Below, in pieces: positions 1 through 59,945 of a stretch of 64,000 nucleotides of DNA (its first letter is position 1; every line of letters begins with the position of its first letter). The position numbers and the translations under genes were made by a program. The notes beneath the pieces are model-generated. The model ran no database searches. It was not told the DNA's origin and saw only the letters and a list, made by a program, of their open reading frames with translations. The DNA is from Mobula hypostoma (lineage: Eukaryota). The stretch covers positions 49,292,001 through 49,356,000 of the forward strand of contig NC_086097.1 in assembly GCF_963921235.1 (NCBI RefSeq), written 5' to 3'.

Positions 1-315
1 GCCATCAGGTTGGAGGCTACCCAGACGGAATATAAGGTGTTGTCCCTCCAACCTGAGTGTGGCTTCATCTTTACAGTAGAGGAGGCCGTGGACAGACATG
101 TCAGAATGGGAATGGGATGTGGAATTAAAATGTGTGGCCACTGGGGGATCCTCCTTTCTCTGGCAGACAGAGCGTAGATGTTCAGCAAAGCGGCCTCCCA
201 GTCTGCGTCGGGGCTCGCCAATATATAAAAGGCTACATCGGGAGCACCGGACGCAGTATATCACCCCAGCCGACTCACAGGTGAAGTGTTGCCTCACCTG
301 GAAGGACTGTTTGGG
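1..315 (-). mobile_element. Penelope-like element fragment (GIY-YIG region), inverted arm running off the window start
   Basis: Near-identical reverse complement of ~844-1158; minus strand encodes the GIY-YIG region (VIYCVRCSRC..LYIGE, HLIFRLGSLQPDG). Confidence 0.9.
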
Positions 316-324
316 AAGGACTGT

Positions 325-1188
325 CTGACTCTCACAGCTATCTGGACTATTCCTCTTCTCACCCTGTCTCTTGCAAAAACGCCATCCCCTTCTCGCAATT
401 CCTCCGTCTCTGCCGCATCTGCTCTCAGGAGGAGGCTTTTCATTCTAGGACGAGGGAGATGTCTTCCTTTTTTAAAGAAAGGGGCTTCCCTTCCTCCACT
501 ATCAACTCTGCTCTTAAACGCATCTCCCCCATTTCATGTACATCTGCTCTCACTCCATCCTCCTGCCACCCCACTAGGAATAGGGTTCCCCTGGTCCTCA
601 CCTACCACCCCACCAGCCTCCGGGTCCAACATATTATTCTCCGTAACTTCCGCCACCTCCAACGGGATCCCACCACTAAGCACATCTTTCCCTCCCCCCC
701 TCTCTCTGCATTCCCTACGCAACTCCCTTGTCCATTCGTCCCCCCCATCCCTCCCCACTGATCTCCCTCCTGGCACTTATCCGTGTAAGCGGAACAAGTG
801 CTACACATGCCCTTACACTTCCTCCCTTACCACCATTCAGGGCCCCAAACAGTCCTTCCAGGTGAGGCAACACTTCACCTGTGAGTCGACTGGGGTGATA
901 TACTGCGTCCGGTGCTCCCGATGTGGCCTTTTATATATTGGCGAGACCCGACGCAGAATGGGAGACCGCTTTGCTGAACGTCTACGCTCTGTCCGCCAGA
1001 GAAAGCAGGATCTCCCAGTGGCCACACATTTTAATTCCACATCTCATTCCCACTCTGACATGTCTATCCACGGCCTCCTCTACTGTAGAGATGAAGCCAC
1101 ACTCAGGTTGGAGGAACAACACCTTATATTCCGTCTGGGTAGCCTCCAACCTGATGGCATGAACATTGACTTCTCTAACTTCCGCTAG
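325..1188 (+). pseudogene. Frameshifted Penelope ORF remnant with GIY-YIG endonuclease
   Basis: GVIYCVRCSRCGLLYIGET..RFAE, LEEQHLIFRLGSLQPDGMN in ORF 286..1188; upstream parts lie in other frames (e.g. 459..761). Confidence 0.88.
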
Positions 1189-1479
1189 GACCCACCTCCC
1201 CCTCGTACCCCAGCTGTTACTCCTTTTTATGCACACATTCTTTCTCTCACTCTCCTTTTTCTCCCTCTGTCCCTCTGAATATACCTCTTGCCCATCCTCT
1301 GGGTCACCCCCCCCCGTCTTTCTCCCTAGGCCTCCTGTCCCATGATCCTCTCGTATCCCCTTTTGCCTATCACCTGTCCAGCTCTCGGCTCTATCCCTCC
1401 CCCTCCTGTCTTCTCCTATCATTTTGCATCTCCCCCTCCCCCTCCAGCTTTCAAATCCCTTACTCACTCTTCCTTCAGT

Positions 1480-1517
1480 TAGTCCTGACGAAGGGTCTCG
1501 GCCTGAAACGTCGACTG
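1480..1517 (+). ncRNA. Minimal type I hammerhead ribozyme in Penelope 3' repeat
   Basis: UAGUC-CUGACGA-AGG(GUCUCGG)CCU-GAAA-CG-UC/GACUG: both core boxes present, stem I UAGUC/GACUG, stem II AGG/CCU, palindromic ACGU in place of stem III, predicted cleavage after C1512. Confidence 0.85.
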
Positions 1518-1814
1518 CGCCTCTTCCTATAGATGCTGCTTGGCCTGCTGCGTTCACCAGCAACTTTGATGTATGTTGCTAGAAGTGCATTCACAAGTTT
1601 TCATCCCACCTACACTATGTGTGAAACTTCTCCTCTGGACTTGTTATCCCAATGATTGGGCAATTCTCAGTTGTTCCTTACACATCTACAATCAAGGCAA
1701 GAATTGTTTTGAAAAAATGCACAGAAAGCAATCTCCCGTCAATAACACTGAAAGCACTATATTGCAGCAGAATCATATTGAAAGTCCACCTCTAAAATCA
1801 GGAGCAGAACACAA

Positions 1815-2008
1815 ACAAGAGAAAATCTGCAGATGCTGGAAATCCAAGCAACACACAGAAAATGCTGGAGGAACTCAGCAGGCCAGGCAGCATCAAAGTA
1901 CAGCTGACGTTTCGGCCCGAGACCTTTCTCAGTCCAAAACGTCGACTGTACTCTTTTTCCATAGATGCTGCCTGGCCTGCTGTGTTCCTCCAGCATTTTC
2001 TGTATGTT
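1815..2008. mobile_element. Penelope-derived fold-back mini-element
   Basis: 1848-1894 is nearly the reverse complement of 1964-2010; half-hammerheads in the centre; 11-bp TSD GCAGAACACAA at 1804-1814 and 2009-2019. Confidence 0.85.
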
Positions 2009-3083
2009 GCAGAACACAATACAGTACAATTAGCCCTAACGACCGGGAATTAACCTACACATAAAGACTGAGAAGTACAAAGGTGTTTTTTAAATAAATG
2101 AACACTATAAAACAGAGCCAATGGATTGTTAAAGTAAGACATTTTTCTGGACCATTAAAAGAGTAAACAGTAAATGTTTACATTTGAAAGAATGATAGCG
2201 GGATTTTCTAGCACATCAGTTGCCTGCAATGCAATCAGGTTTTCACTTTTGTTAAAGGAAAGCTTGTGCTAATGAACATAATATGCTCATGCAGTGCCTT
2301 CTTAGCTAAACACATAATGAAATCCTACTTCAAATGAGCCAGAAAAATTTAGAACATTTATAACGAACAATGACTGAATGCCACGGAATCTGTCAGTGAT
2401 GAATGCATAGCCACGTAAATTCCCTTTTGTTTCTTCATCTCAGGAGACCACAGTCCTATTTCTGCCTACTTGCTTTTCTAAGGCATTGGAGATGGAATGT
2501 ACCCACCCCAATCACTGCCACTACTGAAAAGCCAAGTTGTGGCTCTTGGCCCTCAAATAGTGGCTGAAGGTGAGAAAGTCCTGCTTTCAAAGTTCTTACC
2601 ATGCTGGGACTTTGGACTGATCCAGGTTGTATGCATGGTTTCCTGAGTAGCCTCAGGATTCTAATATACAGACCAGATTGGATAACTTGTGTTTTAGAAT
2701 ATTGCTCCCTATAGCCACAATTCAAATTTAGTGTACAGCACAGTACAGGCCCTTTGACCCACGTTGTTGTTTCAACATTTTAACCTGCTCTAAGATCAAT
2801 CTAACCCCGCCCTCCCACATAGTACTCCATTTTTCTTTCATGCTTGTGTCAATCTAAGATTCTCTTAAATGTCCTTGATGTAATAGCCTCCACCACCACC
2901 CCAACCAGCATGTTCCATGCATCCTTAAATCTCCGTGGGAAAAAACCCTACATCTAATATTCCCGACACTTTCGTCCAAACACCTTAAAATTATGCCCCG
3001 CGCCCACCATATTACCCATTTCTGCCTTGGGTAAGAGTCTCTGGCTGTCCTCTCTATCAATTACTTTTATATCTTATGCACCT

Positions 3084-6704: not shown

Positions 6705-7477
6705 TGACTGTCACTATGTTCTATCCATTGCCTATCCTTCCTCACAGTCTCTCTACACTCTGCATCTACTTTTACACCTACTGTCCCATCCTCTGATCTA
6801 TCACTCTAGTTCCCAACCCCCTCCCCAACAGCTCTAGCAAACCTGCCCGCAAGGATATTCGTCCCCCTCTGTTATTAAACTGCTGATTCCATGTATGGAT
6901 TTACATGGTTATAAATTTTTAAACTGTGGTGTTTTATTGCCACACACAAAGTACCAAGTTTTGCCTGGACAAAGAAAGAATTTCATCATCATAACCTTAG
7001 TGTGCTCAGTTAACCAAGTTAAAACATAATTCATTAGAGCACGAACATGAATATTGGCCATAATTTAGCACTTTTACTGACAATCCTGTGTGAGGTGATA
7101 ATGTCTTTACATTATCATTCTCTGTAATGCATCCAGAGAAAAGCTTTATTACTGGCATATATTTAATCAATTTGATATTTCAGATATTAGATTCAATTCA
7201 AATACCATTCAGCATCAAGCTAAAAGAATCAATTAGCCCTAATGAATGTACTTTCTCATTTTATATTTGCTCATGGTTGGTGTTTTCTTCACAAAGCCAC
7301 TGATTTCCCTCTCAAGACAGACCATGTTTTTGCCAGTTCTACCACCATGCCTATGAATGTTTTCCAAATTTCCAGTGTCCTTCCAAAATAATCCATTATT
7401 TTCCTACATAAAGTATTTTGCACTGTAAAAAAAATTAAGCTGCAATTTTGATGTAAAGCAATATGTATACAGTTACA

Positions 7478-7625
7478 AACACAAAATACTCTGCAGATGC
7501 TGGGGTCAAAGCAACACGCACAACACGCTGGAGGAACTCAGCTGGTCGGGCAGCATCCGTGGAAACGTTGACTGTTCATTTCCACAGATGCTGCCCAACC
7601 TGCTGAGTTCCTCCAGCATATGGTG
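7478..7625. mobile_element. Penelope-derived fold-back mini-element
   Basis: Arms GCTGGAGGAACTCAGCTGGTCGGGCAGCATCCGTGGAAA / TTTCCACAGATGCTGCCCAACCTGCTGAGTTCCTCCAGC; 16-bp TSD with 2 mismatches at 7462-7477 and 7626-7641. Confidence 0.82.
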
Positions 7626-8635
7626 TATATATACAATTACATTTCTATTTATGGTTAGTATGAAAATTCAGCACAGAAATCCCAATCCCTTGAGCCTGGA
7701 TTTAAGATGTACTGTAAAATATAAATATTCAAAGGGCAGTCATAAAGACTGCCTTTTTTCCTCTTATGTTAAATGAAAGATTTTTAACTACATGGCTAGT
7801 TTTGTGTTGGCATCTTTTAACAATTGACAAACTAGCACCTGTATACTGTATATTAATATGCATAACTCCTTTCAAAGTCAGTGTTATTGTGGACTTGGAA
7901 AATCTCATCAATTCTTTGTTTTGAAGGCTATCTTGAGAAAACTAACTTGCAAATAAATGTCATAATATGAAATCAGCTAAATACTGAAGGTATTTTCAAC
8001 AGTTCAACAGTCTCTCATGGCAACTTTGCTATTGTGAGCTAAAACTCCTGAGCTATCATTTATCACAAGAGTCTCCCTGTTCCAGCTGTACATCATTCTC
8101 TCTAATGAACTAAACAACTGCACAAAAAGCATCATCAACATGAGAGGGAAATAAAAAAAAACACACTAGTCAATGAGCAGATATTTGTATTGGTGGGAAA
8201 TAGGCATTAAATTAAATCGAGTGGGTTCAATGAACATTTTTTACTTGAAAACATTTTATCTTTTAAATATTATAATATACCTTCTATATACACATTTTAA
8301 TTTTACGCTTCTTACAGTTTATCTTGAAAAAAATATTAACAGAACTTGAAGCCAGTCCAAAATTCTGAATTCCTGATCAGGACTCATCTTCCAATATTTC
8401 ATGTGTAACTCTGAAACATCTGTTAATTAAATGTTATGCAAAAGATTGTGACACTTAGTGGTTTTGAATGAAACTTCCAGCTGTTAGCTGTTTAAACAAC
8501 AGAGGTCCCAGATTCATATACTGAGACCATCAAGCAAGGTTAAACTTATCAAAGAATTGTCATTGTGAATCTCTTGCTTTGTTTAGGAAGCACACCGCAT
8601 ACAAAGCTCCCATTTCCACTGCGTTACATTGCAGA

Positions 8636-16258: not shown

Positions 16259-17292
16259 GAATGGGCAAAAAAGTGGCAGATGGAATACAGTATTGGGAAG
16301 TGTACGATCATGCATTTCGGTAAAAGGAACAATAGTGTAGACTATTATCTAAATGGGAAGAAAATTCAAACATCAGAGGTCCAAAGGGACTTAGAAATCC
16401 TCATGTAAGATTCCCAGAAGGTTAATTCACGGGTTGAGTCTGTGGGAAAGAAGGCAAATGCAAAGTTGGCATTTATTTCAAGGAGAATAGAACATAAAAA
16501 CAAAGAGATAATACTGAAGCTTCCTAAGACACTAGTCAGGCTGCACTTGGAGTATTGTCAACAGTTTTGGGCCCCTTAACTCAGAAAGGATGTATTGTCA
16601 TTGGAAAGAGTCCAGAGGAGGTTCACGAGGATGATTCTGGAAATCACAGGGTTAACATATGAGGAGGGTTCGGAGCTTTGAGCCTGTACCCACTGGAATT
16701 TAGAAGAATGTGTGGGAATCTCATTAAAACCTACTAAATGTTGGAAGGGCTGGAGGGAACTGCCTCAAAATTGAGGGGTGACCTTCTAGAACAGAAGTAA
16801 AGTGGAATTGTTTTAAGCCAAAGAGTGGTGAATTGGTGGTTCTGCAGTGGAAGCCATGTCCGTGGGTATATTTAAAGTGGAAGTTGACAGTTGTATTGGT
16901 GCATGGCCAAGTGGTTAAGGCGTCAGTCTAGTGATCTGAAGGTCGCTAGTTCAAGCCTCAGCTGAGGCAGGTTGTTGTGTCCTTGAGCAAGGCACTTAAC
17001 CACACATTGGTCTGCGACGACACCGGTGCCAAGCTGTATGGGTCCTAATGCCCTTCCCTTGGACAACATCAGTGGCGTGGAGAGGGGAGACTTGCAGCAT
17101 GGGCAACTGCCAGTCTTCCATACAGCCTTGCCCAGGCCTGCACCCTGGAAACCTTCCAAAGCACAAATCCATGGTCTCACAAGACTAACGGATGCCTATG
17201 AAATGACAGATCAGCTGTGATGAAATGGCGGAGCAGACTCGATGGGTTGAATGGCCTTACTCTGCTCCTATGTCTTATGGACTTATGGTCTT
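16259..17292 (+). mobile_element. 5'-truncated CR1 LINE inserted antisense into the older CR1
   Basis: EWAKKWQMEY, LYK/LVRLHLEYCQQFWAP-like remnant; 3' tail CTGCTCCTATGTCTTATGG(A/T)CTTAT; ATAAG repeated at both junctions. Confidence 0.8.
16898..17199 (+). mobile_element. tRNA-derived SINE with CORE-like central domain
   Basis: A box TGGCCAAGTGG (16904-16914), B box AGTTCAAGCC (16948-16957), then TGTGTCCTTGAGCAAGGCACTTAAC. Confidence 0.8.
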
Positions 17293-21490: not shown

Positions 21491-21659
21491 TTAATGACAA
21501 ACAAGTTGCAGGAGCGGAGGGTAATAGAGAGAGTGAAAGGACAAATGGGATTGATCCCCGAAGGCTAACATGTTCCTCGTGGGCTGAATGCCCTCTTCCT
21601 GCATTGTTGCACAGCTTCCTTGCCCTTGAACTTTAAAAACAATGGAACCCATGTGATTA

Positions 21660-22316
21660 TGCAAACACGAGGAATTCTGCAGATGCTGGAAATTCAAGCA
21701 ACACACATCAAAGTTGCTGGTGAACGCAGCAGGCCAAGCAGCATCTCTAGGAAGAGGTACAGTTGATGTTTCGGGCCGAGACTCTTCGTCAGGACTAACT
21801 GAAGGAAGAGCTAGTAAGAGGTTTGAAAGTTGGAGGGAGAGTGGGAGATCCAAAATGATAGGAGAAGACAGGAGGGGGAGGGATGGAGCGAAGAGCTGGA
21901 CAGGTGATTAGCAAAGGGGATACGAGAGGATCATGGGACAGGAGGCCCTGGGAGAAAGAAAAGGGGGAGGGGCAAGGGGTATAGTCAGAGGGAAAGAGGG
22001 AGAAAAAGGAGAGAGAGAAAGAACGTGTGTATATAAATAAATAATGGATGGGGTACGAGGGGGAGGCAGTGCATTAGCGGAAGTTTGAGAAGTCAATGTT
22101 CATGCCATCAGGTTGGAGGCTACCCAGACGGAATATAAGGTGTTGTTCCTCCAACCTGAGTGTGGCTTCATCTTTACAGTAGAGGAGGCCGTGGATAGAC
22201 ATATCAGAATGGGAATGGGATGTGGAATTAAAATGTGTGGCTACTGGGAAATCCTGCTTTCTCTGGCGGACAGAGCGTAGGTGTTCAGCAAAACGATCTC
22301 CCAGTCTGCATCGGGT
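21660..22316 (-). mobile_element. 5'-truncated Penelope-like element with complete 3' terminus
   Basis: GIY-YIG C-terminus (RFAEHLRSV..LEEQHLIFRLG); decayed hammerhead at 21760-21797; perfect 14-bp TSD AACCCATGTGATTA at 21646-21659 and 22317-22330. Confidence 0.92.
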
Positions 22317-26075: not shown

Positions 26076-27078
26076 TCAGTATTTAGTAGATGCACCTTTG
26101 GAGGTAATTACAGCTTGAGTCTGTGTGGATAGGTCTCTATCAGCTTTGCACATCTGGACACTGCAATTTTTTCCCCATTCTTCTTTACAAAACTGCTCCA
26201 GCTCTGTCAGATTGTATAGGGATTGTGAGTGAACAGCCCTTTTCGAGTCCATCCACAAATTCTCAATTGGATTGAGGTCTGGACTCTGGCTTGGCCACTC
26301 CAGGATATTAACTTTGTTTTTAAGCCATTCCTGTGTAGCTTTGGTTTTATGCTTGGGGTCATTGTCTTGCTGGAAAACAAGACACTGTTCTCTTGCAGAC
26401 TGCATCAGGTTTTCCTCCAAGATTTCCCTGTATATTGCTGCATTAATTTTACCCTCCACTTTCCCAAGCCTTCCGGGGCCTGCTGCAGTGAAGCATCTCC
26501 ACAGCATGATGCAACCACCATCATGCTTCACAGTAGGGATGGTGTGTTTTTGATAATGTGTAGTGTTTGGCTAACACCAAACATAGCCTTTAGTCTGATG
26601 GCCAAAAAGCTCAATTTTGATTTCATCCTACCCTAGAACCTTCTTCCGGCTGGCTTCAGAATCACCCAAATGCCTTCTGGCAAACTCAAGCCAAAATATC
26701 ATGTGAGATTCTTTTTTCCAACAGTGGCTTTCTCTTTGCCACTCTCCCATTAAGTTGCAACTGTTGAAACACCTGGGCAACAGTTGTTCTAAGTGCAGTC
26801 TCTCCCATCTCAGCTACTGAAACCTGTAACTCCTCCAGGATTATTATAAGTCCTTTAGGGCCTCCCTCACTAGTCATCTTGCACAGTCACTCAGTTTTTG
26901 AGGACAGCCTGCTCTAGGCAGATTTACAGCTGTGCCTTATTCTTTCCATTTCTTGATGATTGACTTAACTGTACTCCAAGGGATATTCAGTAACCTGGAA
27001 ATATTCTTCTATCCATCTCCTGACGTACTTTTCAATAACATTTTTTCAGAGTTACTTGAAGTGTTCTTTTGTCTTCAT
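26076..27078 (-). pseudogene. Tc1 DD34E transposase pseudogene
   Basis: MKTKEH start; KHDGGCIMLW, QQDNDPKH, WPSQSPDLNPIENLW, STKY* with frameshifts and stops. Confidence 0.88.
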
Positions 27079-27331: not shown

Positions 27332-30300
27332 CTATAAAAAAACCCCTGTACCCCTTAAAAACACTAAAAATACCCGGACTTGTGCTCTCTCACCCATGCC
27401 CAGCAACCCTTTTAATGTGAATTCCTGCATCCCCAACTCCCTTAATTTATTTCTCATCATCTCTCTCTGTATCCCATACTTCCTGCAACTCAGAACTACA
27501 TGTTCTACTGACTCCTCTTCCTGACATTCCTCACACAATCCTGTCTGGTGTTTCCCCATCATTTTCAATGTTTTGTTTAATGCACAGTGCCCCAGCTTTA
27601 ACCTAGTCCACACAATTCCCTCTCTTCTGTTTCCATTACCTACCCTAGTAACTGCAACACTCTTTTGTATTTGATATAAATGCCTCCCTTTCCCCCCCCG
27701 TCCCATCTTTCTTGCCACATTCGGTTGACTTTTTCCCAGATTACACACTTAACCTCTGCTTTACTGATACTAATGTGCATTTCCACATTTTCTTTCTTTA
27801 ACGCTCTCTTTGCCAACTCATCCACCCTCTCATTCCCCTTCACCCCTACATGTGCTGGAACCCATAGAAATTTTACCTGACCTCCCTGATTTGCAATTCT
27901 TGTAACTAACTGAAGGACTTCATAAAGTACATCTTGCCGACTGTTTGAGTGAAAAGACCTTAAACTTGCTAGAACTGAGGATGAATCTGAACATATCAAT
28001 GCTTTGGATGGTCTGGCTTTCTGCACCCATTGCAACGCAACCAACACTGCCAGCATCTCCACTGTAAACACCCCTAACTTATTAGATGTTCTTCTGCTGA
28101 TTCCAATTTCTTTTTCTGGTATTACCACCCCAAACCCTGTCACTCCTGTTTCAGGTTCCTTCGCACCATCTGTATAAATGTGAGTATAATCACTATACTT
28201 TTCCATCACATGACAGTTAAATGCATTTACCAAATCTGTTTTATATCTTTCTTTCCTTTTTACCTCTAACAAATGCCAGTCTATGTCAGGCCATACAAGC
28301 TTCCATGGAGCTACAACCGGATAAACTACTGAAGAACTTACCCTCAGATCAAACACTCCACATTCTTTCGCGATATCATTCCCTACCCGACTAAAGGTAT
28401 CCCTCTGAAACCTCCCATTTTCCCAGTACTCCTGCAACACTCCTTTAGTAGGGTGAGAATCATTGTGCCCCTGCAAGTTAGCCCAGTAGTTTGCCATCAG
28501 TTGCATCCTTCTTAGTTCCAAAGGCATTATTCCCATTTCTACCTGTAGGGCTGACACTGGTGACGTTTTAAAAGCCCCACTGCACACTCTCAAAGCCTGA
28601 GCCTGAATCACATCCAGTTTCCTTATAAGAGACCTAGCTGCTGATCCATATACTATATTTCCATAATCCAATACAGATCTTACTAAAGCCACATACATTC
28701 TCTTCAAAGCTGAACAACTTGCTCCCCATTCCCTACCAGTCAAACATCTCATCACATTTATTACTTTTTTACATTTCTCCTCAACTTTCCTGATATGGTC
28801 TGCCCATGTTAATCATGAATCAAATATAACTCCCAGAAATTTAAATGATGCAACCCTTTCTAATTCAACCCCATACATCCTTAACTTCTTCCCTACCTCA
28901 ACCCTTTTCCTGGTAAAAAATACAGTTTGAGTTTTATCTACTGAAAATCTACATCCCCAATCATAACCCCACTCCATCACTTCATCAATTGCTTCTTGTA
29001 GTTTCCTGATTATATAGTCCATGTTCCTGCCTCTTTTCCACAAGGCCCCATCATCCGCAAACAGTGACCTATCTATATCCACTGGTACCTTTGTGAAGAC
29101 ATCATTGATCATAATGATGAAAAGTAATGGGCTAATCACACTACCTTGAGGTGTGCCATTTTCCACTATGTACTGTTTTGATAATTCTGATCCAATCCGA
29201 ACTTGAATTTTTCTACCAAACAAAAAATCTTTAATCCAATTAAAAACTCTCCCACCAACCCCCATCTTGTGCAGTTTAATTAATAATCCTTCCTTCCACA
29301 TCATATCATAGGCTTTTTCAATGTCAAAGAACACTGCCACTACTGACTCTCTATTTGCCTGGGCCTTCCTTATTTCAGTCTCTAACATAATCACTGAGTC
29401 CATGGAATTCCTTCCCTTTCTAAAACCACTCTGATAACTTGCCAGCATTCCCCTTTTCTCAAGCTCATATGATAACCTTTCTGTTATCATCCTTTCCATT
29501 ATCTTACATATACTTGATGTTAATGCAATTGGTCTGTAGCTAGTGGGTTTTGACAGATCCTTGCCAGGCTTCCTTATTGGAATTACTACTGCTTCTTTCC
29601 ATGCACTTGGTAATCTTCCATCCTCCCACACTCTGTTATAAAAATGCAGCAACTTCAAGAGTGCTCCTTCTCCTAGATTTTTTAGCATCACAGAGCATAT
29701 CAGATCTTTCCCTGGGGAGGTTGGTCTCGATCTCTTTATTGCTCTCACCATTTCTGCTAATGTAAATGGATCATCAATTATATCATCTGTTCCTTCCCTC
29801 CTGCTTAACACACCTGGGTGTTGGCTCATTATTCTTTCCCTCCTCCTTCTCCCTTCTTCAGACAAATTTTCTGAACTGTGTATCAGTACAAATGACTTGG
29901 CCATGACCTCAGCCTTATCCCTACTGGAGACTGCAGTTTCCTCCTCAGATATCATTACTGGATATTCCCATTCCCTTCTATCTCCTCCCATCCTCTTAAT
30001 CATTCCCCATATCTCTCCCACAGGTGTTGTTCTTCCTACCTTGTCGCAAAAACTCCTCCAACTTGCCCTTTTAGCTTGACGTATAGTTCTTCTCACCACT
30101 GCCTGTGCTTTCTTATATTGAACCAAATGCTGCATATTATGGGTTCTTTTAACTAGCCTGAATGCTCTATTTCTGTTTTTTACAGCCTGACAACATTCCT
30201 CTGTCCACCATGGTACCAGTTTTCTATTCATCCTATTTTTACTCCTAGGTATAGACCCTTCTGCTGCCATGATAATTGCTGAAGTCACCTGACTGTTTAA

Positions 30301-31080
30301 TTCATCTACATTTCCAGAAATATCAATCTTTGTCAACCTTTCTTCACTCAACTTCTGGAACTTACCCCAATCAGCTTTTTCAAACACCCACTTTGGGGTT
30401 CCGCCACCTGGTCTTACTTCAACTCTTTCACCCACTGAACACAAAACTGGGTAGTGATCACTGCCTACTGTTGAAGCAGTCCAAACTCCCCAGTTACTAA
30501 TGCCAGCCAAGGTATTAGACACTAACGTAATATCTAACACTGACTCAGTTCCTGTTGTTATATCTATCCTTGTGCCGCTACCATCATTCATACACACCAA
30601 ATCCCTTTCTTCCATCAAATCTTCAATTACCTTTCCATTTGGATCTGTAATCTGATCCCCCCATATTGTGCTATGAGCATTGAAATCTGCACACCACACT
30701 ACTTTATGTCTATTTTGTCCTTGTATCTTTAATAGGCTGTCCAAATCCAACCTTTTACATGGATTGTAGTAGTTAATTATAACCACTCCCTCCCCTCTCT
30801 CCCACACTTCCACCACTATGTATTCCTGATCATCTCCTTTCTCCAGTACCCTATATGGTATACCTTGCTTGATTAACATAGCACAACCCCCTCCTCCCCC
30901 TAGATTTCTATCTTTCCTTATCATTGTATACCCATATACCACAAAGTCTAAAGTTGGTTTCAACCAAGTTTCCTGAATACACACTACATCCGGTTTTACA
31001 ACCATTTCTTTAATAAAGTGCTTGAATTCCTGGCTATTGGCCAGTAAGCTCCTTGCATTCCATTGTAAAAGAATCACCAT
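27332..31080 (-). pseudogene. LINE ORF2: APE endonuclease, RT, RNase H, CCHC (nonsense at 28813, frameshift near 27695)
   Basis: LQWNARS, IQETWL, DFNAH, SDHYP; YRPIALTS, FFDIEKAYD, GTPQGS, LFADD; IYTDG, ICSDS, WVPAHVGVKGNERVD; CEEC..HVVLSC. Confidence 0.93.
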
Positions 31081-31088
31081 AATTAGTA

Positions 31089-32317
31089 TTAACCAACACA
31101 TGACACTTCCTGGCTTGACTGATTACTGAGGTTCTCCCTCACTTCCTCCCATGTCAGTCCTACTAACCCTAAATGGTTTACTGCTGCTTTTACCACCAGC
31201 TGAATTTTGTCACTTTTTGACTTTACCTCAGCAGTACATTAATCACTCCTGCAATGAATGTTACTAGAGCCTTTTTGTCTACATAAATCCTGTCATTTGT
31301 TCTTTGTTGCATCTCTCGTATCCCTATTGCTCCCTGTTCATTAGGAGCATTTTTCTGTTCTCTTGACATTCTTACAGCTTCTGCATAAGTGATCTTTCTT
31401 TTCACTCTTATTTCTTGAATTTTAGTCTCCCGTCTCACAACCTCACACCCACTATATGCAACATTATGAGCTCCTCCACAATTGCAGCATTTTGGTTGAA
31501 CTCCTGTTCCGCACTTTCCATATTCATGATCACCCCCACATCTAGCACATCTCCTCTGCCTTTTACAGTTTTTAGCCACGTGTCCAAACCTTTGACAATT
31601 ATAGCACCTCAATGGCTTTGGCACATACACCCTTACTGGGTAACTCATGAAACCCAGGAACACCTTCCTTGGCACTCTTTCTTCTTCAAATTCAATCAAT
31701 ACTGATTCACTTTCTTTTTTCACTCCCTCCTTTGTTGTTTTCAGTCTTTGAACATTCATTACTTCCCCTCCTTTGATATTCCTCTTGATCTCCTCCATAT
31801 TTATACTCATTGGTATCCCCGTGATCACTCCTTTACAACCACTGTTTTGTGCTCCCACCCTCCCAGTGTATTCCATCTTGCATTTTCCTATCTCTTTTAG
31901 CTTGAGTGCTTTCTCAAGTTGTTCCTCATTCGCACATCTTACCAATAAGTTGCCATCATTAAGGACTTTTGCAAATACTATTTCCCCTATCTTATTTGTC
32001 AGAGTTGTTGTTAGCACAAACGGGTTAATTTTCTTCATATATCCCTGAGCCTTCTCATTAAACCTAATTATGACACCACCTCTCTGAGCTTGTTCATCTT
32101 CCTCACTTTCAGAGCTTTCTCCACTATCATTTCTTATTCTTTTATTCCCTTTGTCTTGGTTTTTATTCATCCGACCCCTCACTACCTCCTCATTCCCTTT
32201 ATTTCTCCCTTCACAATAATCCACCTCTCCCCAGCTGCCTACCTCTGGTCCCAAGTCTCTATCCCTCTCCTTCTCCACTTTCTTTCCCTCAACCCCGCCT
32301 CTTATCTTGTCCGCCAT
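31089..32317 (-). pseudogene. LINE ORF1, gag-like with CCHC zinc knuckles (one frameshift near 31238)
   Basis: CYNCQRFGHVAKNC, CARCGGDHEYGKC, CCNCGGAHNVAYSGC; the C-terminus TAEVKSKSDKIQ...VSCVG* continues in another frame to TAA at 31089; the start codon (32317 vs 32404) is uncertain. Confidence 0.85.
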
Positions 32318-32628
32318 TACCGGACCCACACAACCCCCTCCCAGCAATTTCCATTCCTTCTCCACTCTCTTTCCCTCAACAGGTTCCAAAACACACTCAC
32401 GCATCTGCCAGCAGGTGGACCTTCCAGGTACAGGTGTATTTTTACTACAATCAATTGAAACACCTTGACTGCACACAGGTGATCCCCACTTGACTAATTA
32501 TGTGACTTCCAAAACCAATTGGCTGCACCAGTGATGATTTGGTGTTTCATATTAAAGGGAGTGAATACGTATGCAATCAATTATTCTGTGTTTATATTTG
32601 TAACTACTTTAGATCACATTGTAGAGAT

Positions 32629-34865
32629 AACTGAGAGGCTAGTGTACCTCTTGGAAAGTAGAGGTATGGTGGCTACATATCAAAGTGGGTACAGGAAAGG
32701 AAGGAATACTATGGATCCAGTGTTGTGTCAAGAGGATGAAATAAGAAAAGTTCAAATAACTAAAGAGACAGTGGTTGCAGTTTTTTTTGACGTTGAGAAA
32801 GCTTATGATCTGTTATGGAATGAGGGGCTCCTAATCAAGCTATGTTTAATGGGAATGGGGGGGTGGTGTTCAATTGGGTTAAGGACTTTTTAAATGGGAG
32901 AACTATTCAGGTGAAGATAGGATCAGAGCTATTAAGTCAGTATATTGTAGAAAATGGGATGCCTCAGGGGAGTGTGGTGAGTCCAACTTTATTCTCCATT
33001 TTGATAAATGATATATTTGTAAATATTCCAATGGAAGTGGGGAGGTCATTGTTTGCAGATGATGGGGCTTTGTGGAAAAGAGGGAGAAATATTGAATGTA
33101 TAGTTATGAAAATGTGAGATGGAATTAATCAAGTTGAAGAGTGGGGAACAAAGTGGGGTGTTAAATTTTCAGTGAAGAAAACAAAAGCCATATTCTTTAC
33201 AAGGAAAAAGCTTGGGGGACTTAATTTGAATCTGTATGGAAGTAACCTGGAGAGAGTTGAAAGTTTTTGGTTTTTGGAAGTGCACTTTGACTTGAGATTA
33301 ACATGGAGAGAACATGTTAGATATGTAGTTACTAAATGTAAAAATGTGATAAATGTCATGAGGTGTCTTGCTGAATTGGGGTGCTGATTTTGCATCACTG
33401 AGGTATACTTATGTGGTGTTAGTAAGATCAAGATTAGACTATGGAAGTATTGTATACGGGTCAGTAGCAAAACCTGTACTAGCAGAACTGGATATCATGC
33501 AAGCTCGGGCTCTAAGGGTGTGCTTGGGAGCGGTTAGAATTTCCCCAGTGTGTGCACTCCAAGCTGAAGCAAATGAAATGTCATTGGGGCTGTGGAGTAA
33601 ACAGCTGGAGGCCAATTACTGGATTAACTTAAGGGGGCATGGCGATAGCCATCCTACAAAAAGGGTGTTGCAGACATGCTGGGAGAAGGAGAGGACACAA
33701 AAAGAAAGTTTTGGCTGGACAGGAGAGCAAACAGCAAAAGATATGGGTGTATACGATAAAGAGTTTTGTCCAAGTGTGGTGTGGCCTGTCAGACCTTTCT
33801 GGGTATTAGAAAATCCCTCTGTAGATTTGGAATTGCTTAAGATTAAACACAGTAATAAGATGGCTGATATACTCAGTGAATATCATAGTTATAGGAAATG
33901 TAATTATAAACACATACAGATTTTTACGGATGGATCAAAGGATCCAGAAACAGGTGCAACAGGGTCTGCAATTGTTGTAGCAAGTTATCAAGTGGAAATT
34001 AGCAAGAGAATGCTTGATTGCTTGAGTGTATATGCAGTTGAAATGTTTGCCATATTGTTAGCACTAGAATGGAGTGAGCAGGTTGATTGTAATAATATTG
34101 TGATATGTAGCGATTCTGTATCGGCCCTTGCAAGCATTAAGGTGGGTACAGCTAGAGGTCACCAGGATCTGCTTCATGAAATCCTGTTTGCAAATTCAAG
34201 ACTGGCTAGACAAGGCAAAAATATTGCATTCATGTGGGTTCCAGCACATTCAGGTATTACGGGAAATGAGACAGCAGATAGGCCGGCAAAAGCAGCAGTC
34301 AAAAAAGGATCTATAGAGGTCAATATTAAACTATCAAAATCAGAGGGGAAGAGCATAGTGTGGAGAAGGATAAATCAACAGTGGCAGCAGCATTGGGATA
34401 GAGCAATAAAAGGAAGATATTTACATTCAATTCAGAACAGAGTAGGTATGGGAAGAAGTAGGGGAGTAAAGCGGAAAGAGCAAGTAATTATAAGTAGACT
34501 GAGAATTGGGCACAGTAACCTTAATGGAACTCCAGCCATCATAAATAAACATCCAACAGGTTTTTGCGATCTATGTCAGGAGACTGAAACACTAGAGCAT
34601 ATCCTTATTTCATGCAGGAAATTTGCACAGGAAAGACAACAAATGTTACAACAACTACGCAAAATAGGACTGGTAGAGAACAGTGTTAAAGGTTTATTGG
34701 AACATGGGGAAAGTGATCAGGGGAGGAAATGGTTGATTAGTTTTTTAATGGTGACGGGACTGGAAAGATGGCTTTAAAATGAATGGACAATGAGGGACAA
34801 TAAATCCTGTAGATGGCAGTAATGCAACACAGTGGATGCCAACTGCCGTAAAAACTCAAGGAAGA
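32629..34865 (+). mobile_element. 5'-truncated I-group (Nimb-like) LINE (RT, RNase H, CCHC) inserted in the Tc1 TIR
   Basis: FFDVEKAYD, GMPQGS, LFADD, IFTDGSKD, WVPAHSGITGNETAD, CDLC..HILISC; 18-bp TSD with 3 mismatches at 32611-32628 and 34866-34883. Confidence 0.9.
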
Positions 34866-53700: not shown

Positions 53701-56054
53701 GTTTCTGCACCTCGACCACATCTGAGGACAGACTTTCAAATTAAAATCAACTGAGCACGTGCAAAATGGGGCTCAGAACAAGGTGGCAGAAGTGGTACAA
53801 GTCAACTAAATTGGAAAAAAGATGAGATAATAGTAAAGCACAAAAAGCATTTAGTTAAAGCAAAAAATGAAACTCTTTATACTAAGACCAAGATGAAGAA
53901 AAGGTAAACCAGCAGAAGGAACCTGCTTTGTTGTCTACTGTGTTTTTCTGCTGGAGATTGTAGGCATGCTACATTGATGCCAGAATGTGTGGTGTCACTT
54001 GTGGGCTGCCCCCCAGCACACCCTCGGTTGTGTTGCCTGTTAATGAAAATGACACATTTTACTGTACACTTCGATGTGTATGTGACAAATAAACTTGAAT
54101 CTTTAAGGTTGTCCACTGGTTTTTATCATCAGTGAGATGAGAAAAGGAGGTGAGCACACGTGCAGAATCCCATTCGGGATTCATGAGCTCATTAGTAAGT
54201 TGTCCATCAGCACTGTACAGGCCTGCAAATCAGAGAAAACTGATATGCTTCTCAAGTATAGCAGCCAACTGAAATCAATAGAGTAGAGAAATCCTGGCAG
54301 ATTTGATGGCAGTTGAACAGTGATGGCAAGTATTATTAAAACAGCTGACTCCAAAGTAGTACTCACCGTGCAGAAGGGTTGGTCACCTACACAAGTCTAC
54401 TGCTTTTGGATCTTATGAATGGAGCAAACCAAGTGCAGCTACATCTGAATGAGTTGCAGGAAGAGTGTTTGGTATCTTTGAAACAACTTCAGAATGCCAA
54501 GCCAGTGTTGGATCCCCTTTTCTGATAATGCTGAGTGCCACTATTGTGGCTGGAGCTAGACTGTGGACTGTCATCTCTGAAGTGAAGGAAGGAATAGAAA
54601 TCCAGATGAGAAAGCTGAAGTGAGGGGGTGAGTGTGCAGCAAGGATCCATGAAAGGATGTAGAGGAGGGGAAATGAACACACATGGAGTGACAAATAGAC
54701 AATGAAGTACAATGCAGCACCGAGACAGATGTGGAACATCTGGAATCTCATGAGTGCAAAAAAATGAAAATTTCGTCAAAGAAGATTCCAAAGAAAGTAA
54801 GTGACTGGGTTTGACTTTACACATTTTACAATGTTATCATTGTCTGCCTACTGTGGTTTTCTTGGAGATATGATCATGCTTTCACTAAATCAGAATCAAG
54901 TTTATTATCACTGACTAATGTCATGAAATTTGATGTTTTGCTTCAGCAGTACAGTGCAAGATATAAAATTAGCTATGTTACAAAAATAAATAATGCAAAA
55001 GATGAATAACAAGGTAGTGTTCATGGGGTCATGGACCATACAGCAATCCAATGGCAGAGGGGAATAGCTGCTCCTAAAATCACTTTTATATTGCTCCAGT
55101 TTACACAGACTGTAAACAAATTTGATCTTTGTTTAAAGAAAAACTACTTAAGTTTTGGATTCTCTCCAATTCAATAGTTGGCACTGTGACTACCAGTACA
55201 TTCCCTCTTCCCCATGTTCCGTTGGACAGTAGATTGTGCGCAATATTCCACCAATAATTTGAAACTGACATCTCCCATATCAATTCAAACCCTCTCCCTC
55301 ACCAAGTCTTCAAAATCTATTCTGGTCCTCTAAAATTCTCAAGTCTATCAACAAATCCAATATCTCGTTTCTATCTGTTATAGTTATTACCACTAATAGC
55401 AACACAACATCAAAAAAAAATCAATATATTTGGATATCTACTGCATAGAATAGAAGTATTCTAACATCGCCAAAGAGTGAATGTGCACCCATTTAATAAC
55501 ATGAAAAAATTAAGAGGACTACCTTTTAAGAGTCAGATTCCTATATATAAAGGCAATCAAAATAGAATGAAGATTTAAGTCAAACTTCAAAGTTGTGTGT
55601 GCCTAATACTTTTTTTTAAATCAAAACAGTAAATTACAGAGGATTTTTGTTTTTAAAAAAGAAATAGCTTGATGAGATGCCTAGCATATCATTCCTCATT
55701 CTGAAATATGTAACTCAGTGAAGTAATTACTCTAAGTATGGGACACAGTGATTTAAAATACAAGCAGAAGAAAAATGAATTCTGAACTTTGTCCTTCATC
55801 TCAAGTATAGCTTGCATGTTGATAAATAAATGGTGCCATTACAAATTGCTTCTCCTATCCCATTTTACAGTATTATATATAAAACAGCATTTACAATCAA
55901 GTCCAAAAATAATAAAATTACACTGCAACACACAGTGCCTTTTATTGGTTATAAATTAATAATGCAATTTTATAACCTAATTTTATAGCAGCCAAATCTA
56001 ATGTAAACAGAAGAAAGATATATACAGTACATTATATATATATATATAACCAGT

Positions 56055-59000
56055 ATGCTGCGGGAAAAGCTGTGTAAACTCCGGAGGGCGGAACATCTAC
56101 GACAGCAAAGAAGGAAGAAAGAGAAAAGGCGAGCACAGTTTGTGAGAGATCCATTCAGCTTCACCAGGACTCTTCTCGGCCAACAAAAATCTGGTATACT
56201 ATCCAGCTCAAAGCCAGAGGTAGAGGAGTTCCTGCGGGAGGCACACAGTGACCCACGGAGGGGTCAGGGACTAGGAACCAATCGGGCTGTGCGTAGACCG
56301 GAAAATCCATCAATTGAGCTGAATGTGAAGGAGCCTACATGGCAGGAAATCCAGGACATCAACCGGAAAGCTAAAGCATCAGCTGCCCCAGGCCCAAGCA
56401 GCATACCTTATAAGGTGTATAAGAAATGCCCAAAACTTCCTCGGAGGCTGTGGAAGGTCATGATCTGGGCCAAAGGTACTATTCCATCAAGTTGGAAATT
56501 GACAGAGGGATGTTTTATTCCAAAGGAAGAGGATTCTTCCACAATTGCCCAGTTTAGGACAATTTCTCTCCTGGATGTGGAATGTAAGATTTTCTTTTCT
56601 GTGCTCGAAAGAAGGCTGACTTCTTACATCAGCGGTCCCCAACCACCGGGCCATGGACCGGTACCGGGCCGCAAAGCATACACTACCGGGCCGCGAGGAA
56701 GTGATATGATTTGGCGATATGAGTCAGCTGCACCTTTCCTCATTCTCTGTCACGGCCACTGTTGAGCCATTACGCATGCGAGGTCATTACCACAGCGTCA
56801 TCCATTTCAGCGCAGGAAGGAGATCAACTCCGCGAGCTTGCAAATGACGGCGGGCTGGAAAGTATGTTTGACATAACATCTCTACCGGCATTCCGGATCA
56901 AAGTCAAGGCTAAAAATCCTGAGATAGCCACGAAAGCACTGAAAACATTGCTTCCATTTCCAACATATCTCCGCAATGAATGCAATGAAAACTAAATTGC
57001 GGAATAGACTGGACATAAGAAACCCCCTTCGAGTATCGCTGTCTCCCGTCACCCCTCGATAGGACCGTCTTGTTGCAGGAAAACAAGCCCAGGGCTCCCA
57101 CTGATTCAGTGATATTGGTGTGTTGCAATGATTTTATATGTTCATACGGGGAAAATATGTGCTGCGTGTTTAATATCCAAACGTTACTTAAAATGTTATG
57201 ATGCTATTGTCTTATAAAACCATATAACAATTACAGCACGGAAACAGGCCATCTCGGCCCTTCTAGTCCATGCCGAACGCTGCTCTCACCTAGTCCCACT
57301 GACCTGCACTCAGCCCATAACCCTCCATTCCTTTCCTGTCCATATACCTATCCAATTTTTCTTTAAATGATTAATATCGAACCTGCCTCTACCACTTCTA
57401 CTGGAAGTTTGTTCAACACTTACTTCAAGCTCCCCTGTCCTCCCCTGATAGTTGACTTATCACTATATTCATGCGAGGAAAATATGCGCTGTGTGTATAA
57501 TATTAAATTTGTTAGATAATCCCTTTTAGAAAGGAAATTGAGTGCATTAGCCACTTATCACCGATATTCCGGTAGTGATTAACAACCCCCACCCCCCCCC
57601 GAAAAGAATCGCCAAAAATTATTTTGGGGGGTGGGGGGGGGAATCGTACACGCATGCGCACTGGTGCCCGCGCACGGCCTCATGGTAATCGTAGTCTTTC
57701 TCGGGGTAAACCCAGCGTATTTGACTGCACTGCTAGTCTTGTCCATTGGCAACCCTACCACCTCCCACCCCCAGTTGGCCGGTCCACAAGAATATTGTCA
57801 ATATGAAACCGGTCCGCAGTGCAAAAAAGGTTGGGGACCCCTATCTTACATGACGCAGAACCACTATATCAATACATCCATCCAGAAAGGCAGTATTCCA
57901 GGCTTTTCAGGGTGTCTGGAACACACCTCAATGATTAGCCATTTGATTCGTGAGGCCAAGCAGAAAAAGAGTGACCTAACAGTTGTCTGGTTAGACCTCA
58001 CAAACGCCTATAGGTCTATTCTACATGACCCCATGCTAGAAGGACTTGACCACTACTACATCCCAGTGGCTATTCGAGACATGATCACCAGCTACCTAGG
58101 AGGATTCAAACTCAGATTTACATCAGCCCATTTCACAACTAGTTGGCAGGTCCTCCAGAAAGGGATTCCAACAGGGTGCACCATCTCCCCCATTCTATTT
58201 ATTATGGGAATGAATTATCAGCAGCAGAAAATGTAACCCGCGGCCCCATGCTGGAGTCGGGTATTGTTCAGCCGGCTCTACGAGGGTTCATGGACGACAT
58301 CACTATAACAACTGTGTCATATGTCCAAGCAAGATGGGTATTGGAAACCCTGGACAATGTAGCCACTTGGGCGAGGATGTCCTTCAAGGCCAAGAAGTCC
58401 ATGTGTATGGTGATCGGAAAGGGTAAAGTTATAGCAAGTTTAGCCTCCAAGTTCAGGGTGAGGTCATCCCTTCCATCGAAAATAACCTGAAAATGCTTGG
58501 GGAAGTGGTTTAATGTGTCACTGACAGATGGGGACAATGTCACCAATGCTGTGAAGCAGACAGACGAATGGTTGAAGAAGATCGACAAATCCAGACTTCC
58601 CGGTAAATTCAAGACCTGGCTGTACCAATACGGCATTCTGCCCAGGCTTCTCTGGCTCTTCACACTTTATGAGTTCCCCATGACTGCCATAGAGGGCATC
58701 CAGAGGAGAACCAACAAGCACCCGCAGAGATGGTTGGGAGTTCCCCCAAGCTTCTCTTCAGTGGGCCTCTATATTCGATTTGGGCAACTGCATCTTCCCC
58801 TTTCATCTGTTGTGGAGGAATTCAAGGTGGCAAAATGCAGAGCCTTATTAAGCTTGAGAGATTCCAATGACGTCTTGGTAAAGCATACAGGCGTTACAAC
58901 CAGATCTGGGCACAAGTGGGCAGCCAACGCAGCTGTGGAGCAGGTGGTGTGTTCTCTGAAGCTGCGAGATATCATTGGCAACCTCTGTGTCAGGCGGCAA

Positions 59001-59945
59001 GGCCTCGGCTCGGTTCACTTCCAGCAGTGGGGAAATGCAAGCATAAGGAACAGGCGAGACATGGTACAGGCAGAAGTACAGATCCATGAGGAAGAGAAGT
59101 GGATGTCAAAGGCAATAGAACAAGGGTCCCAGGGTCCCTGGACAAAATGGGATCTGCCCAAGTGCAAGATCTCATGGGCAGAGTTATGGAGACGGGAGCC
59201 CTTCCATATTTCCTTCCTCTTGCGAACCGTGTATGACACCCTTCCTTCACCATTACATCTGTACACATGGAAGATGAGAGAGGACCTGAACTGTAAGCTC
59301 TGTGATCAAAAGGGGACACTGGCTCATATACTGTCCGGGTGAAAAACAGCTCTAACTCAAGGACGGTATAGGTGGCACCATGATAAGATGCTTCTGGCTC
59401 TTGCTGACACACTAGAGCGGGAGAGATGCAAGAAGAGGACGGCTGGCACAGATCTGAGGAAGGCCATCACCTTCATCAAAGAGGGAGCCAGGCCTTTCGT
59501 AACCAATCAACCAAAGCCCTAACGGCTTAGCCCTAACCAAAGCCCTGCTGCTAACGGCCAGGTCCTGGGAGATGAGGATCGATGTGGGAAGGAGGTTGCA
59601 GTTCCCGGATGTGGTGAACACAACCCTATGCCTGGACATTGTACTGTGGTCAATGGAAGACAAGAAAATAATTCTGGTTGAGCTGACTGTGCCGTGGGAG
59701 GAGGGAGAAGCCAGAACGAGCCTCTTGTTGGAGTTGCAGTAGGCGAGAGGAGGGAAGCTGGAAGCCAGGAGCAGATGGGCAGTGATTTGGCCACCACTGC
59801 CAGCCCACCAACTGGAGAATGTCGTGGTTAAGGGTTGAAACACTCGGTGAAGGTTGGGAACCACCTGATGACATCTGCTCCTGGCTGAAGTCTACAGTTA
59901 CCTAAAAAGGTATCTGAAGAATGCACCCTAACAGGTGTATGTAAC
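56055..59945 (+). mobile_element. Hero/NeSL-type non-LTR retrotransposon (RT plus restriction-like endonuclease), 5'-truncated, interrupted by hAT
   Basis: APGP, FRTISLL, QKGSIPGFSGCLEH, WLDLTNAY, GIPTGCTISPILF, FMDD, CKLC..HILSG, PDIVLWS..ELTVPWEE; several frameshifts and stops. Confidence 0.9.
56630..57843 (+). mobile_element. hAT/Charlie non-autonomous element (copy 2)
   Basis: TIRs CAGCGGTCCCCAACC / GGTTGGGGACCCCTA; perfect 8-bp TSD TCTTACAT at 56622-56629 and 57844-57851. Confidence 0.93.

What the first reader, a model, noticed from the sequence alone, without database searches (positions are those of the whole stretch)
1804..2019. TSD-flanked palindromic mini-element made of two head-to-head Penelope termini fused inside the ribozyme
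Seen: a 194-bp insertion with a perfect 11-bp TSD. Its arms are inverted copies of the Penelope 3' end joined at hammerhead stem II: minus arm GGTCTCGGGCCGAAACGTCAGCTG, plus arm TCTCAGTCCAAAACGTCGACTG. Both lack the CUGANGA half. One arm has the extra ~35-nt terminus and the other stops at TGTTGC, where the long copy at 325-1570 also stops. Inference: MITE-looking hairpins made by retrotransposition, either as a self-propagating non-autonomous family or as recurrent short products of ribozyme-trimmed templates. They are a possible genome-wide source of dsRNA hairpins or small RNAs.
Basis: partly seen in the sequence, partly recalled or inferred. Interest (0 to 1): 0.7.

Follow-up and report, generated by a model that had tools for sequence, protein, structure and literature searches.

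The report
Two-armed Penelope insertion, not a MITE
This 216-base DNA hairpin is one old, one-off insertion of two short ends of a Penelope-like jumping gene joined head to head; such ends pile up at the first base of the element's ribozyme rather than at its predicted cut site, likely because the copying enzyme starts on both cut strands of the target and runs off the front end of an uncut RNA.

Summary
The anatomy is real: an exact 11-bp TSD and two inverted ends of a Neptune-type Penelope-like element (PLE), one with the 38-nt tail and one without, joined in hammerhead helix II. It is not a self-propagating family: its junction occurs once in 3.48 Gb, and 66 of 66 such hairpins have different junctions (roughly 80,000 genome-wide, estimated). 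It is not ribozyme-trimmed: both arms run 17-23 nt past the predicted cut. In a young subfamily, arm 5' ends pile up 14-fold at -35..-16 with a sharp edge at -31, the first base of helix I, also in single-arm copies; the cut site is at most a minor peak. All 20 inverted pairs carry exactly one tail, and paired arms share variants (93% against 61% shuffled). Best reading: twin priming on both target strands from one source RNA, run-off at an RNA 5' end at -31, microhomology joining. The RNA end is inferred; no RNA data. The architecture is published; I did not find the -31 hotspot in print. The scan reached the same reading before on other DNA of this genome. Small RNA and editing are untested.

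The parts
1804..1814 (.). Left copy of the 11-bp TSD; its last 5 bases (CACAA) are also the end of the element's tail
1810..1928 (-). Left arm: tailed PLE end, from helix II (about -22) through the predicted cut (1906/1905) to the tail end; carries a deletion of about 9 nt after 1894
1810..1847 (-). 38-nt optional tail, the stretch between the two reverse-transcription start sites described for PLEs
   Evidence: PMC11167929
1927..1928 (.). Head-to-head junction with a likely 2-nt microhomology (TC), read by eye and assuming one substitution in the left arm; unique in the genome
1927..2010 (+). Right arm: tail-less PLE end, from helix II (-16) through the predicted cut (1943/1944) to TGTTGC
1858..1858 (+). 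Rare variant shared by both arms (partner position 2000); about 92% of laid depth in four relatives reads the other base
   Evidence: (table 3)
2009..2019 (.). Right copy of the TSD; its first 2 bases (GC) are also the element's tail-less end
1..315 (-). Part of the inverted, tailed arm of the neighbouring long copy (young subfamily); continues about 390 bases before the window
325..1579 (+). Tail-less arm of the long copy: broken RT C-terminal part, Cys-rich linker, GIY-YIG (stop 1186-1188), 3' UTR and ribozyme; separate insertion, same architecture
1481..1517 (+). Intact minimal type I hammerhead of the long copy; 1481 = position -31 (first base of helix I, the genome-wide 5' end hotspot); predicted cut 1512/1513
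   Evidence: motif as in PMC4209133

Best explanation
The hairpin is a single, old, non-propagating insertion of two ends of a Neptune-type Penelope-like element, likely made when the element's enzyme cut the target with a stagger, primed reverse transcription from both free ends (one at the tail end, one 36 nt further in), likely ran off the 5' end of an uncut RNA at the first base of the hammerhead's helix I, and the two short cDNAs were likely trimmed and joined through microhomology. Shown by sequence and counts: parent type, TSD, one tail per pair, shared variants between arms, unique junctions, the -31 edge. Inferred: two priming events on one source RNA, trimming and joining. Least certain: that -31 is an RNA 5' end (a transcription start at an initiator-like YYAGTCC) and not a block to the enzyme. 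Long arms and partial tandems would come from circular or read-through RNA, which has no end there.
For: Parent: an 862-aa frame (L193) with RT, a CxxxxCxxC linker and GIY-YIG. One tail per pair: 20 of 20 young pairs; 32 of 37 sampled hairpins, none with two tails, 5 incomplete. Two priming events, not fold-back copying: the tail-less arm reaches further upstream than the tailed arm in 8 of 20 pairs. One source: paired arms agree at 110 of 118 polymorphic calls against 61% +/- 5% in 5000 shuffles, none reaching it; arm lengths are coupled (14 both short, 5 both long, 1 mixed; p=4e-4). TSDs of 12-16 bp in 17 of 20 pairs; TSD edges match the element's next bases at 21 of 34 ends (p=1e-4). Hotspot: 34 of 94 arms end at -35..-16, 2.6 per 100 nt against 0.18 upstream, 14-fold. 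Genome-wide exact counts: 3256 stop at -30, 3193 at -31, 1085 at -32, 33,375 pass; the -32 class is 25% of the -31 plus -32 total, as chance extension would give. Single-arm copies with abutting TSDs start at the same place. In vitro, a lizard PLE cuts and extends both strands, starts at two internal sites that bound the tail, and uses uncut RNA (PMC11167929). Drosophila Penelope has an internal promoter in the pLTR (PMC2377424).
Against: No RNA 5' end was seen. No extra G from a cap: the base before -31 is G 31, A 35, C 34 in the first 100 listed of 3193 (counted by eye). Of 10 near-full-length loci that reach the upstream ribozyme only 1 stops at -32; 9 run on (p=0.08 against first-round arms), so a second kind of template has to be assumed. 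In D. virilis an intron ends at the start of helix I and the start site lies 121 nt upstream (PMC4209133, PMC2377424); here too a pyrimidine tract plus AG precedes the ribozyme in every subfamily. The -35..-16 bin was chosen after seeing the data. Shared variants could partly come from later gene conversion between arms. This copy's own arms stop at about -22 and -16, short of the edge.
Confidence: 0.6

Rival explanations
1. Same twin priming, but -31 is a block on a longer, intron-retaining RNA: splicing factors bound at the pyrimidine tract and AG, or helix I paired in a dimeric ribozyme, stop the enzyme there.
For: Pyrimidine tract plus AG directly before TCCTGA in all subfamilies seen; the intron ends at the 5' end of helix I in D. 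virilis (PMC4209133); no cap G; many long cDNAs pass the site (33,375 of 40,909).
Against: The stop is after the AG is copied and at the same A in subfamilies whose pyrimidine tract and helix I differ in reach; a helix would be expected to stop the enzyme at its 3' edge (inference); no shared first exon is seen, TSDs abut the arm.
Confidence: 0.25
2. The arms stop at random, and the ribozyme's own inverted repeats and palindromes select where two cDNAs join, or where a longer palindrome later collapses.
For: Several junctions use 1-4 nt overlaps in helix I or II; long palindromes are unstable (general knowledge).
Against: Single-arm copies, joined to host DNA, show the same edge; long inverted pairs persist; junctions do not converge on one joint.
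Confidence: 0.07
3. Templates were trimmed by ribozyme self-cleavage, so cDNAs end at the cut.
For: 1172 copies have a purine in place of the C before the cut, about 1.3% of an estimated 88,000 (41 hits in the sample, scaled), above the 0.45% transversion rate: a minor peak of about 1-2% of arms is possible.
Against: Both arms here include 17-23 nt upstream of the cut; 0 of 94 arms end at 0..+4 and 2 at -2..+3; -30 and -31 take about 8% each. Helix I overlap joints would mimic such a peak.
Confidence: 0.04
4. A self-propagating MITE-like or SINE-like hairpin family.
For: Palindromic shape, TSD, tens of thousands of look-alikes.
Against: Junction found once in the genome with up to 2 mismatches; best other locus 85% identical with another junction; 66 of 66 junction types differ; hairpins come from several subfamilies and grade into long two-armed copies; TSD length varies.
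Confidence: 0.03

Closest known systems
Inverted-pLTR insertions of endonuclease-bearing Penelope-like elements (PMC3846280, parts 1-3 of 5 read; PMC8557442, passages read)
   Same: Inverted 5'-truncated copy next to a direct one, 30-40 bp tail at one end only, TSD around the whole unit (8-10 bp in Adineta), Cys-rich linker of the Neptune group.
   Different: Here both arms are reduced to about 85-120 nt with no coding DNA; such units are estimated at 56,000-109,000; the 5' ends have a single-base edge at helix I, which those texts do not describe.
Poseidon of Anolis carolinensis in vitro (PMC11167929, main text read, parts 1-2 of 4)
   Same: Both strands cut and extended, two internal start sites bounding the tail, uncut RNA as template.
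   Different: That paper saw no difference in start site between strands and a primer site not homologous to the RNA; here every pair uses one site per strand and TSD edges show short microhomology. There the ORF starts in helix II; here it appears to start about 140 nt after the cut.
Minimal hammerheads of PLEs (PMC4209133, parts 1-2 of 4 read)
   Same: Same minimal type I motif; the paper already notes pairs of motifs 100-700 bp apart on opposite strands in Schistosoma and proposes circular templates.
   Different: This copy holds no complete ribozyme; the paper does not map breakpoints.
Non-LTR (animal) retrozymes (bioRxiv 10.64898/2026.07.22.740005, part 1 of 5 read)
   Same: Short, non-coding, PLE-derived, hammerhead-related.
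   Different: Retrozymes are head-to-tail tandem units with complete ribozymes; this is head-to-head, lacks CUGANGA and has no sister copies.
L1 twin priming (recalled, not read here)
   Same: Both target ends prime reverse transcription; an inversion joined by microhomology within one TSD.
   Different: L1 arms cover different parts of the RNA; here both arms copy the same part, giving a palindrome.
MITEs (definition recalled)
   Same: Short, palindromic ends, TSD, high apparent copy number.
   Different: No homogeneous family, no fixed TSD length, unequal ends, parent is a retroelement.

Membership tests
EN+ Penelope-like element (Neptune type) insertion | Parent ORF with RT and C-terminal GIY-YIG | tested here: met
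   L193 frame of 862 aa; Pfam RVT_1 E=5e-5 and GIY-YIG E=6e-4, both below Pfam's curated cut-offs. This is the young sister subfamily; the ORF of this copy's own subfamily was not retrieved.
EN+ Penelope-like element (Neptune type) insertion | Cys-rich linker between RT and EN | tested here: met
   CKRNKCYTC before the GIY-YIG motif; criterion from PMC3846280. No tree was built.
EN+ Penelope-like element (Neptune type) insertion | Minimal hammerhead in the pLTR | tested here: met
   Read by eye at 1481-1517; Rfam at gathering score did not report it; cleavage not tested.
EN+ Penelope-like element (Neptune type) insertion | Inverted truncated copy, one-sided tail, TSD around the unit | tested here: met
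EN+ Penelope-like element (Neptune type) insertion | Partial tandem: tail continues into the ORF of the next unit | tested here: met
   9 of 30 loci with the ORF's 5' part show it contiguously
EN+ Penelope-like element (Neptune type) insertion | TSD present once at an empty orthologous site | tested here: inconclusive
   No empty site among 4 related organisms
MITE / self-propagating non-autonomous family | Many copies with the same internal junction | tested here: not met
MITE / self-propagating non-autonomous family | Matching terminal inverted repeats and a fixed TSD length | tested here: not met
   One end has 38 extra bases; TSDs of 5-16 bp in sister insertions
Non-LTR retrozyme | Tandem units, each with a complete type I hammerhead | tested here: not met
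   Head-to-head, no CUGANGA; definition
Ribozyme-trimmed retrocopy | 5' end at the cleavage site | tested here: not met
   Arms extend 17 and about 23 nt past it
Endogenous hairpin / small-RNA source | Transcription, editing or small RNAs from the hairpin | not testable with these tools
   Only contigs were offered; the fold is stable, -121.2 kcal/mol, z -16

The most novel reading that the evidence does not exclude
PLE transposition is two-ended by rule: one particle uses the tail and tail-less start sites for opposite target strands, and the mRNA begins at the first base of the hammerhead, so priming near its 5' end yields a strong-stop-like cDNA. The roughly 80,000 hairpins are fossil strong-stop products, while ribozyme-made circles give the long and tandem copies. 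The genome then records start site, cut stagger and template form for a mechanism not yet solved.
Probability: 0.45. Interest if true: 0.65.

Novelty: new variant of a known kind. Interest (0 to 1): 0.42.

Why it matters
How PLEs form their tandem and inverted structures is called an open question in PMC8557442. A base-exact 5' hotspot, one tail per pair and coupled arm lengths give direct predictions for the existing in vitro system and for CAGE data. Practically, these hairpins would be mis-annotated as MITEs. The single locus is dead and ordinary; the value lies in the population. If transcribed within introns they could act like inverted Alu pairs as dsRNA, which is untested.

Tried and rejected
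Rfam at gathering score found no hammerhead in the window, only a weak tRNA-like hit. Pfam found nothing in two short pieces of the window's long copy; the longer frame in L193 was needed. A 62-base DNA search for the terminus returned nothing because its words are too common; exact patterns were used instead. Empty-site search in four relatives found none. Contig loose ends in run X1 peak at 1481-1483 (274, 118, 135 contigs), which agrees with the hotspot but mixes in other subfamilies, so it is not counted as evidence; summed contig depth is not usable. A possible exon at 2444-2567 has stops in all three frames and only a weak hit (E=0.2), so no host gene is shown. A first substitution control matched nothing through a wrong spacer and was redone. 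Fold-back copying of one cDNA was rejected (8 of 20 pairs). A cap-derived G was looked for and not seen. A spliced-on first exon was looked for and not seen. The automatic split alignment placed this copy's junction at -27/-9 against -22/-16 by eye, so breakpoints of old copies are uncertain by several bases. Literature searches found no paper on the -31 hotspot or on PLE twin priming; subscription journals are not covered and no supplements were opened, including those of PMC11167929 and PMC4209133, which may bear on this.

Full report
Observation. The repeat GCAGAACACAA is exact at 1804-1814 and 2009-2019. Between them lie two inverted copies of a PLE end. I number from the predicted hammerhead cut (GUC/GAC; last base before the cut = 0). 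The left arm (minus strand, 1810-1928) runs from about -22 to the tail end; the right arm (1927-2010) from -16 to TGTTGC. The overlap is a likely 2-nt TC, read by eye. Both arms lack CUGANGA but include 17 and about 23 nt upstream of the cut. Seven TSD bases double as element sequence. Both arms share a rare base (1858/2000): the variant is 3 of 66 motif hits, two of them this copy's own arms. As RNA it would fold at -121.2 kcal/mol, z -16. Four related organisms, whose flanks differ by about 1-9%, carry the insertion; no empty site appeared. It is old and fixed in that group.

Parent. The long copy beside it (325-1579) is a younger subfamily, 81% identical at the terminus, and has its own inverted tailed arm. 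A relative, L193, has an 862-aa frame with RT, a Cys-rich linker and GIY-YIG (both Pfam hits below curated cut-offs), the Neptune layout per PMC3846280. Near-full-length loci show the tail running on into the next unit's 5' region. One exact 30-mer of the young terminus occurs 64,745 times and one 31-mer of this copy's subfamily 13,440 times.

Family or recurrent product. The 216-base query's 29 best other loci are 80-85% identical, each with another junction; that set is biased to the query's shape. For an unbiased view I took 1.624 Mb: 16 blocks from 14 contigs at arbitrary places, including the window. A terminus profile gave 288 hits, 259 at E<=1e-5, among them 37 head-to-head hairpins, a few with incomplete arms or 60-80 nt gaps. 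Scaled, that is about 79,000 (95% interval 56,000-109,000); the sample predicts the exact 30-mer count well (64,206 against 64,745). All 66 junctions (37 + 29) differ in breakpoints or gap. This copy's junction has one match in the genome at up to 2 mismatches. There is no family.

Where arms stop. I mapped 94 young-subfamily arms (identity >=88%, 3' end at +55 or beyond; from the sample and from 26 of 30 pattern loci, 4 dropped as overlaps; one arm split by an indel merged by hand). Thirty-four end at -35..-16 (2.6 per 100 nt), against 0.15-0.23 in all bins upstream of -60 and 0.18 at +5..+60; ratio 14, p=3e-22, bin chosen after the fact. The mode is -31 (8 arms). None ends at 0..+4. Genome-wide exact counts give 3256 at -30, 3193 at -31, 1085 at -32 and 33,375 passing to -33: 8.0%, 8.5% and 3.1%, the last as expected from chance extension. 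These counts include point mutations and some copies of other subfamilies. At the cut, 1172 copies have a purine for the C, about 1.3% of an estimated 88,000, against 0.45% transversions per site (11 of 2436): a minor peak is possible, not a main one. Single-arm copies with abutting TSDs start at the same place, so palindrome joining does not make the edge. Position -31 is the first base of helix I, the A of an initiator-like YYAGTCC (consensus recalled), and also the AG after a pyrimidine tract.

How the two arms relate. In 20 of 20 automatically paired young insertions exactly one arm has the tail; in 8 the tail-less arm reaches further upstream, which fold-back copying of one cDNA cannot give. 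Three more pairs with a very short or cut second arm escaped pairing. Arms agree at 110 of 118 calls over 8 polymorphic sites, against 61% when shuffled (0 of 5000). Short pairs with short and long with long (p=4e-4). TSDs are 12-16 bp in 17 of 20; at their edges 21 of 34 ends match the element's next base and 12 of 34 match two or more (p=1e-4 and 2e-5 at assumed chance rates 0.3 and 0.09).

Mechanism. The enzyme likely cuts with a stagger leaving 3' overhangs, each end pairs briefly with the RNA at one of the two start sites, both cDNAs head for the RNA's 5' end, and their ends are trimmed and joined. This fits the in vitro data for the Anolis element (PMC11167929). I give about 0.9 to this being a one-off PLE by-product with two priming events and about 0.6 to the whole account, since the meaning of -31 is open. 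Against a plain start site: no cap G; 9 of 10 near-full-length loci read through the upstream ribozyme; and in D. virilis this position is an intron end with the start site further upstream. A block at a splice site or helix I is the main rival (0.25).

Known work. Inverted pLTRs, the one-sided tail and TSDs are described (PMC3846280, parts 1-3 of 5; PMC8557442 and PMC8969392, passages). Opposed minimal hammerheads 100-700 bp apart were noted in Schistosoma (PMC4209133, parts 1-2 of 4). PMC2377424 was read as passages and part 2 of 4; the retrozyme preprint as part 1 of 5. Eight searches gave no paper on the hotspot or on twin priming in PLEs; the library lacks most subscription papers and I opened no supplements. 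My reading was set before the look-up of earlier findings, which showed that the scan had reached it on other DNA of this genome; those notes are not independent support. Two of them led me to measure the background at the cut site.

Verdict. A real feature, a new variant of a known kind: not a MITE, not a retrozyme, not ribozyme-trimmed. The locus is ordinary; the population statistics are a testable clue to an unsolved mechanism. Interest 0.42.

Noticed in passing
window 7473-7628: A second, shorter head-to-head hairpin of another PLE subfamily (arms from about +20 and -7).
   Followed up: partly
window 21659-22316: Single-arm young copy, tailed, with a 14-bp TSD.
   Followed up: yes
G000 C9 30,029,373-30,030,319 (sample block C9): TSD-flanked two-armed copy whose second arm ends at -34, right after the pyrimidine tract and CAG, so priming occurred upstream of the ribozyme; L234 has a similar end at -39.
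   Followed up: partly
window 1470-1519 (tables 5 and 5c): Contig joints going from about +3..+7 back to -31/-30: tandem duplications of the ribozyme core, as a template jump after run-off would give. Few contigs.
   Followed up: no
L243:731-963: Near-full-length copy that begins at -32 beside an inverted arm beginning at -33: the form expected from a complete linear mRNA.
   Followed up: partly
loci L217, L222 and sample block C1b: Apparently single-arm copies carry a tiny inverted second arm of 9-49 nt, so two-ended priming may be commoner than pair counts show.
   Followed up: partly
window 27640-32497 (minus) and 33362-34777 (plus): Long open frames of a non-LTR retrotransposon (gag-like zinc knuckles, endonuclease, RT, RNase H-like), nearly intact; labels from recall.
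   Followed up: no
window 26076-26570 (minus): Tc1/mariner-like transposase fragment; label from recall.
   Followed up: no
window 56007-59342: Broken frames of an R2/R4-like non-LTR element; label from recall.
   Followed up: no
window 16902-16964: Weak tRNA-like match, probably a SINE head.
   Followed up: no
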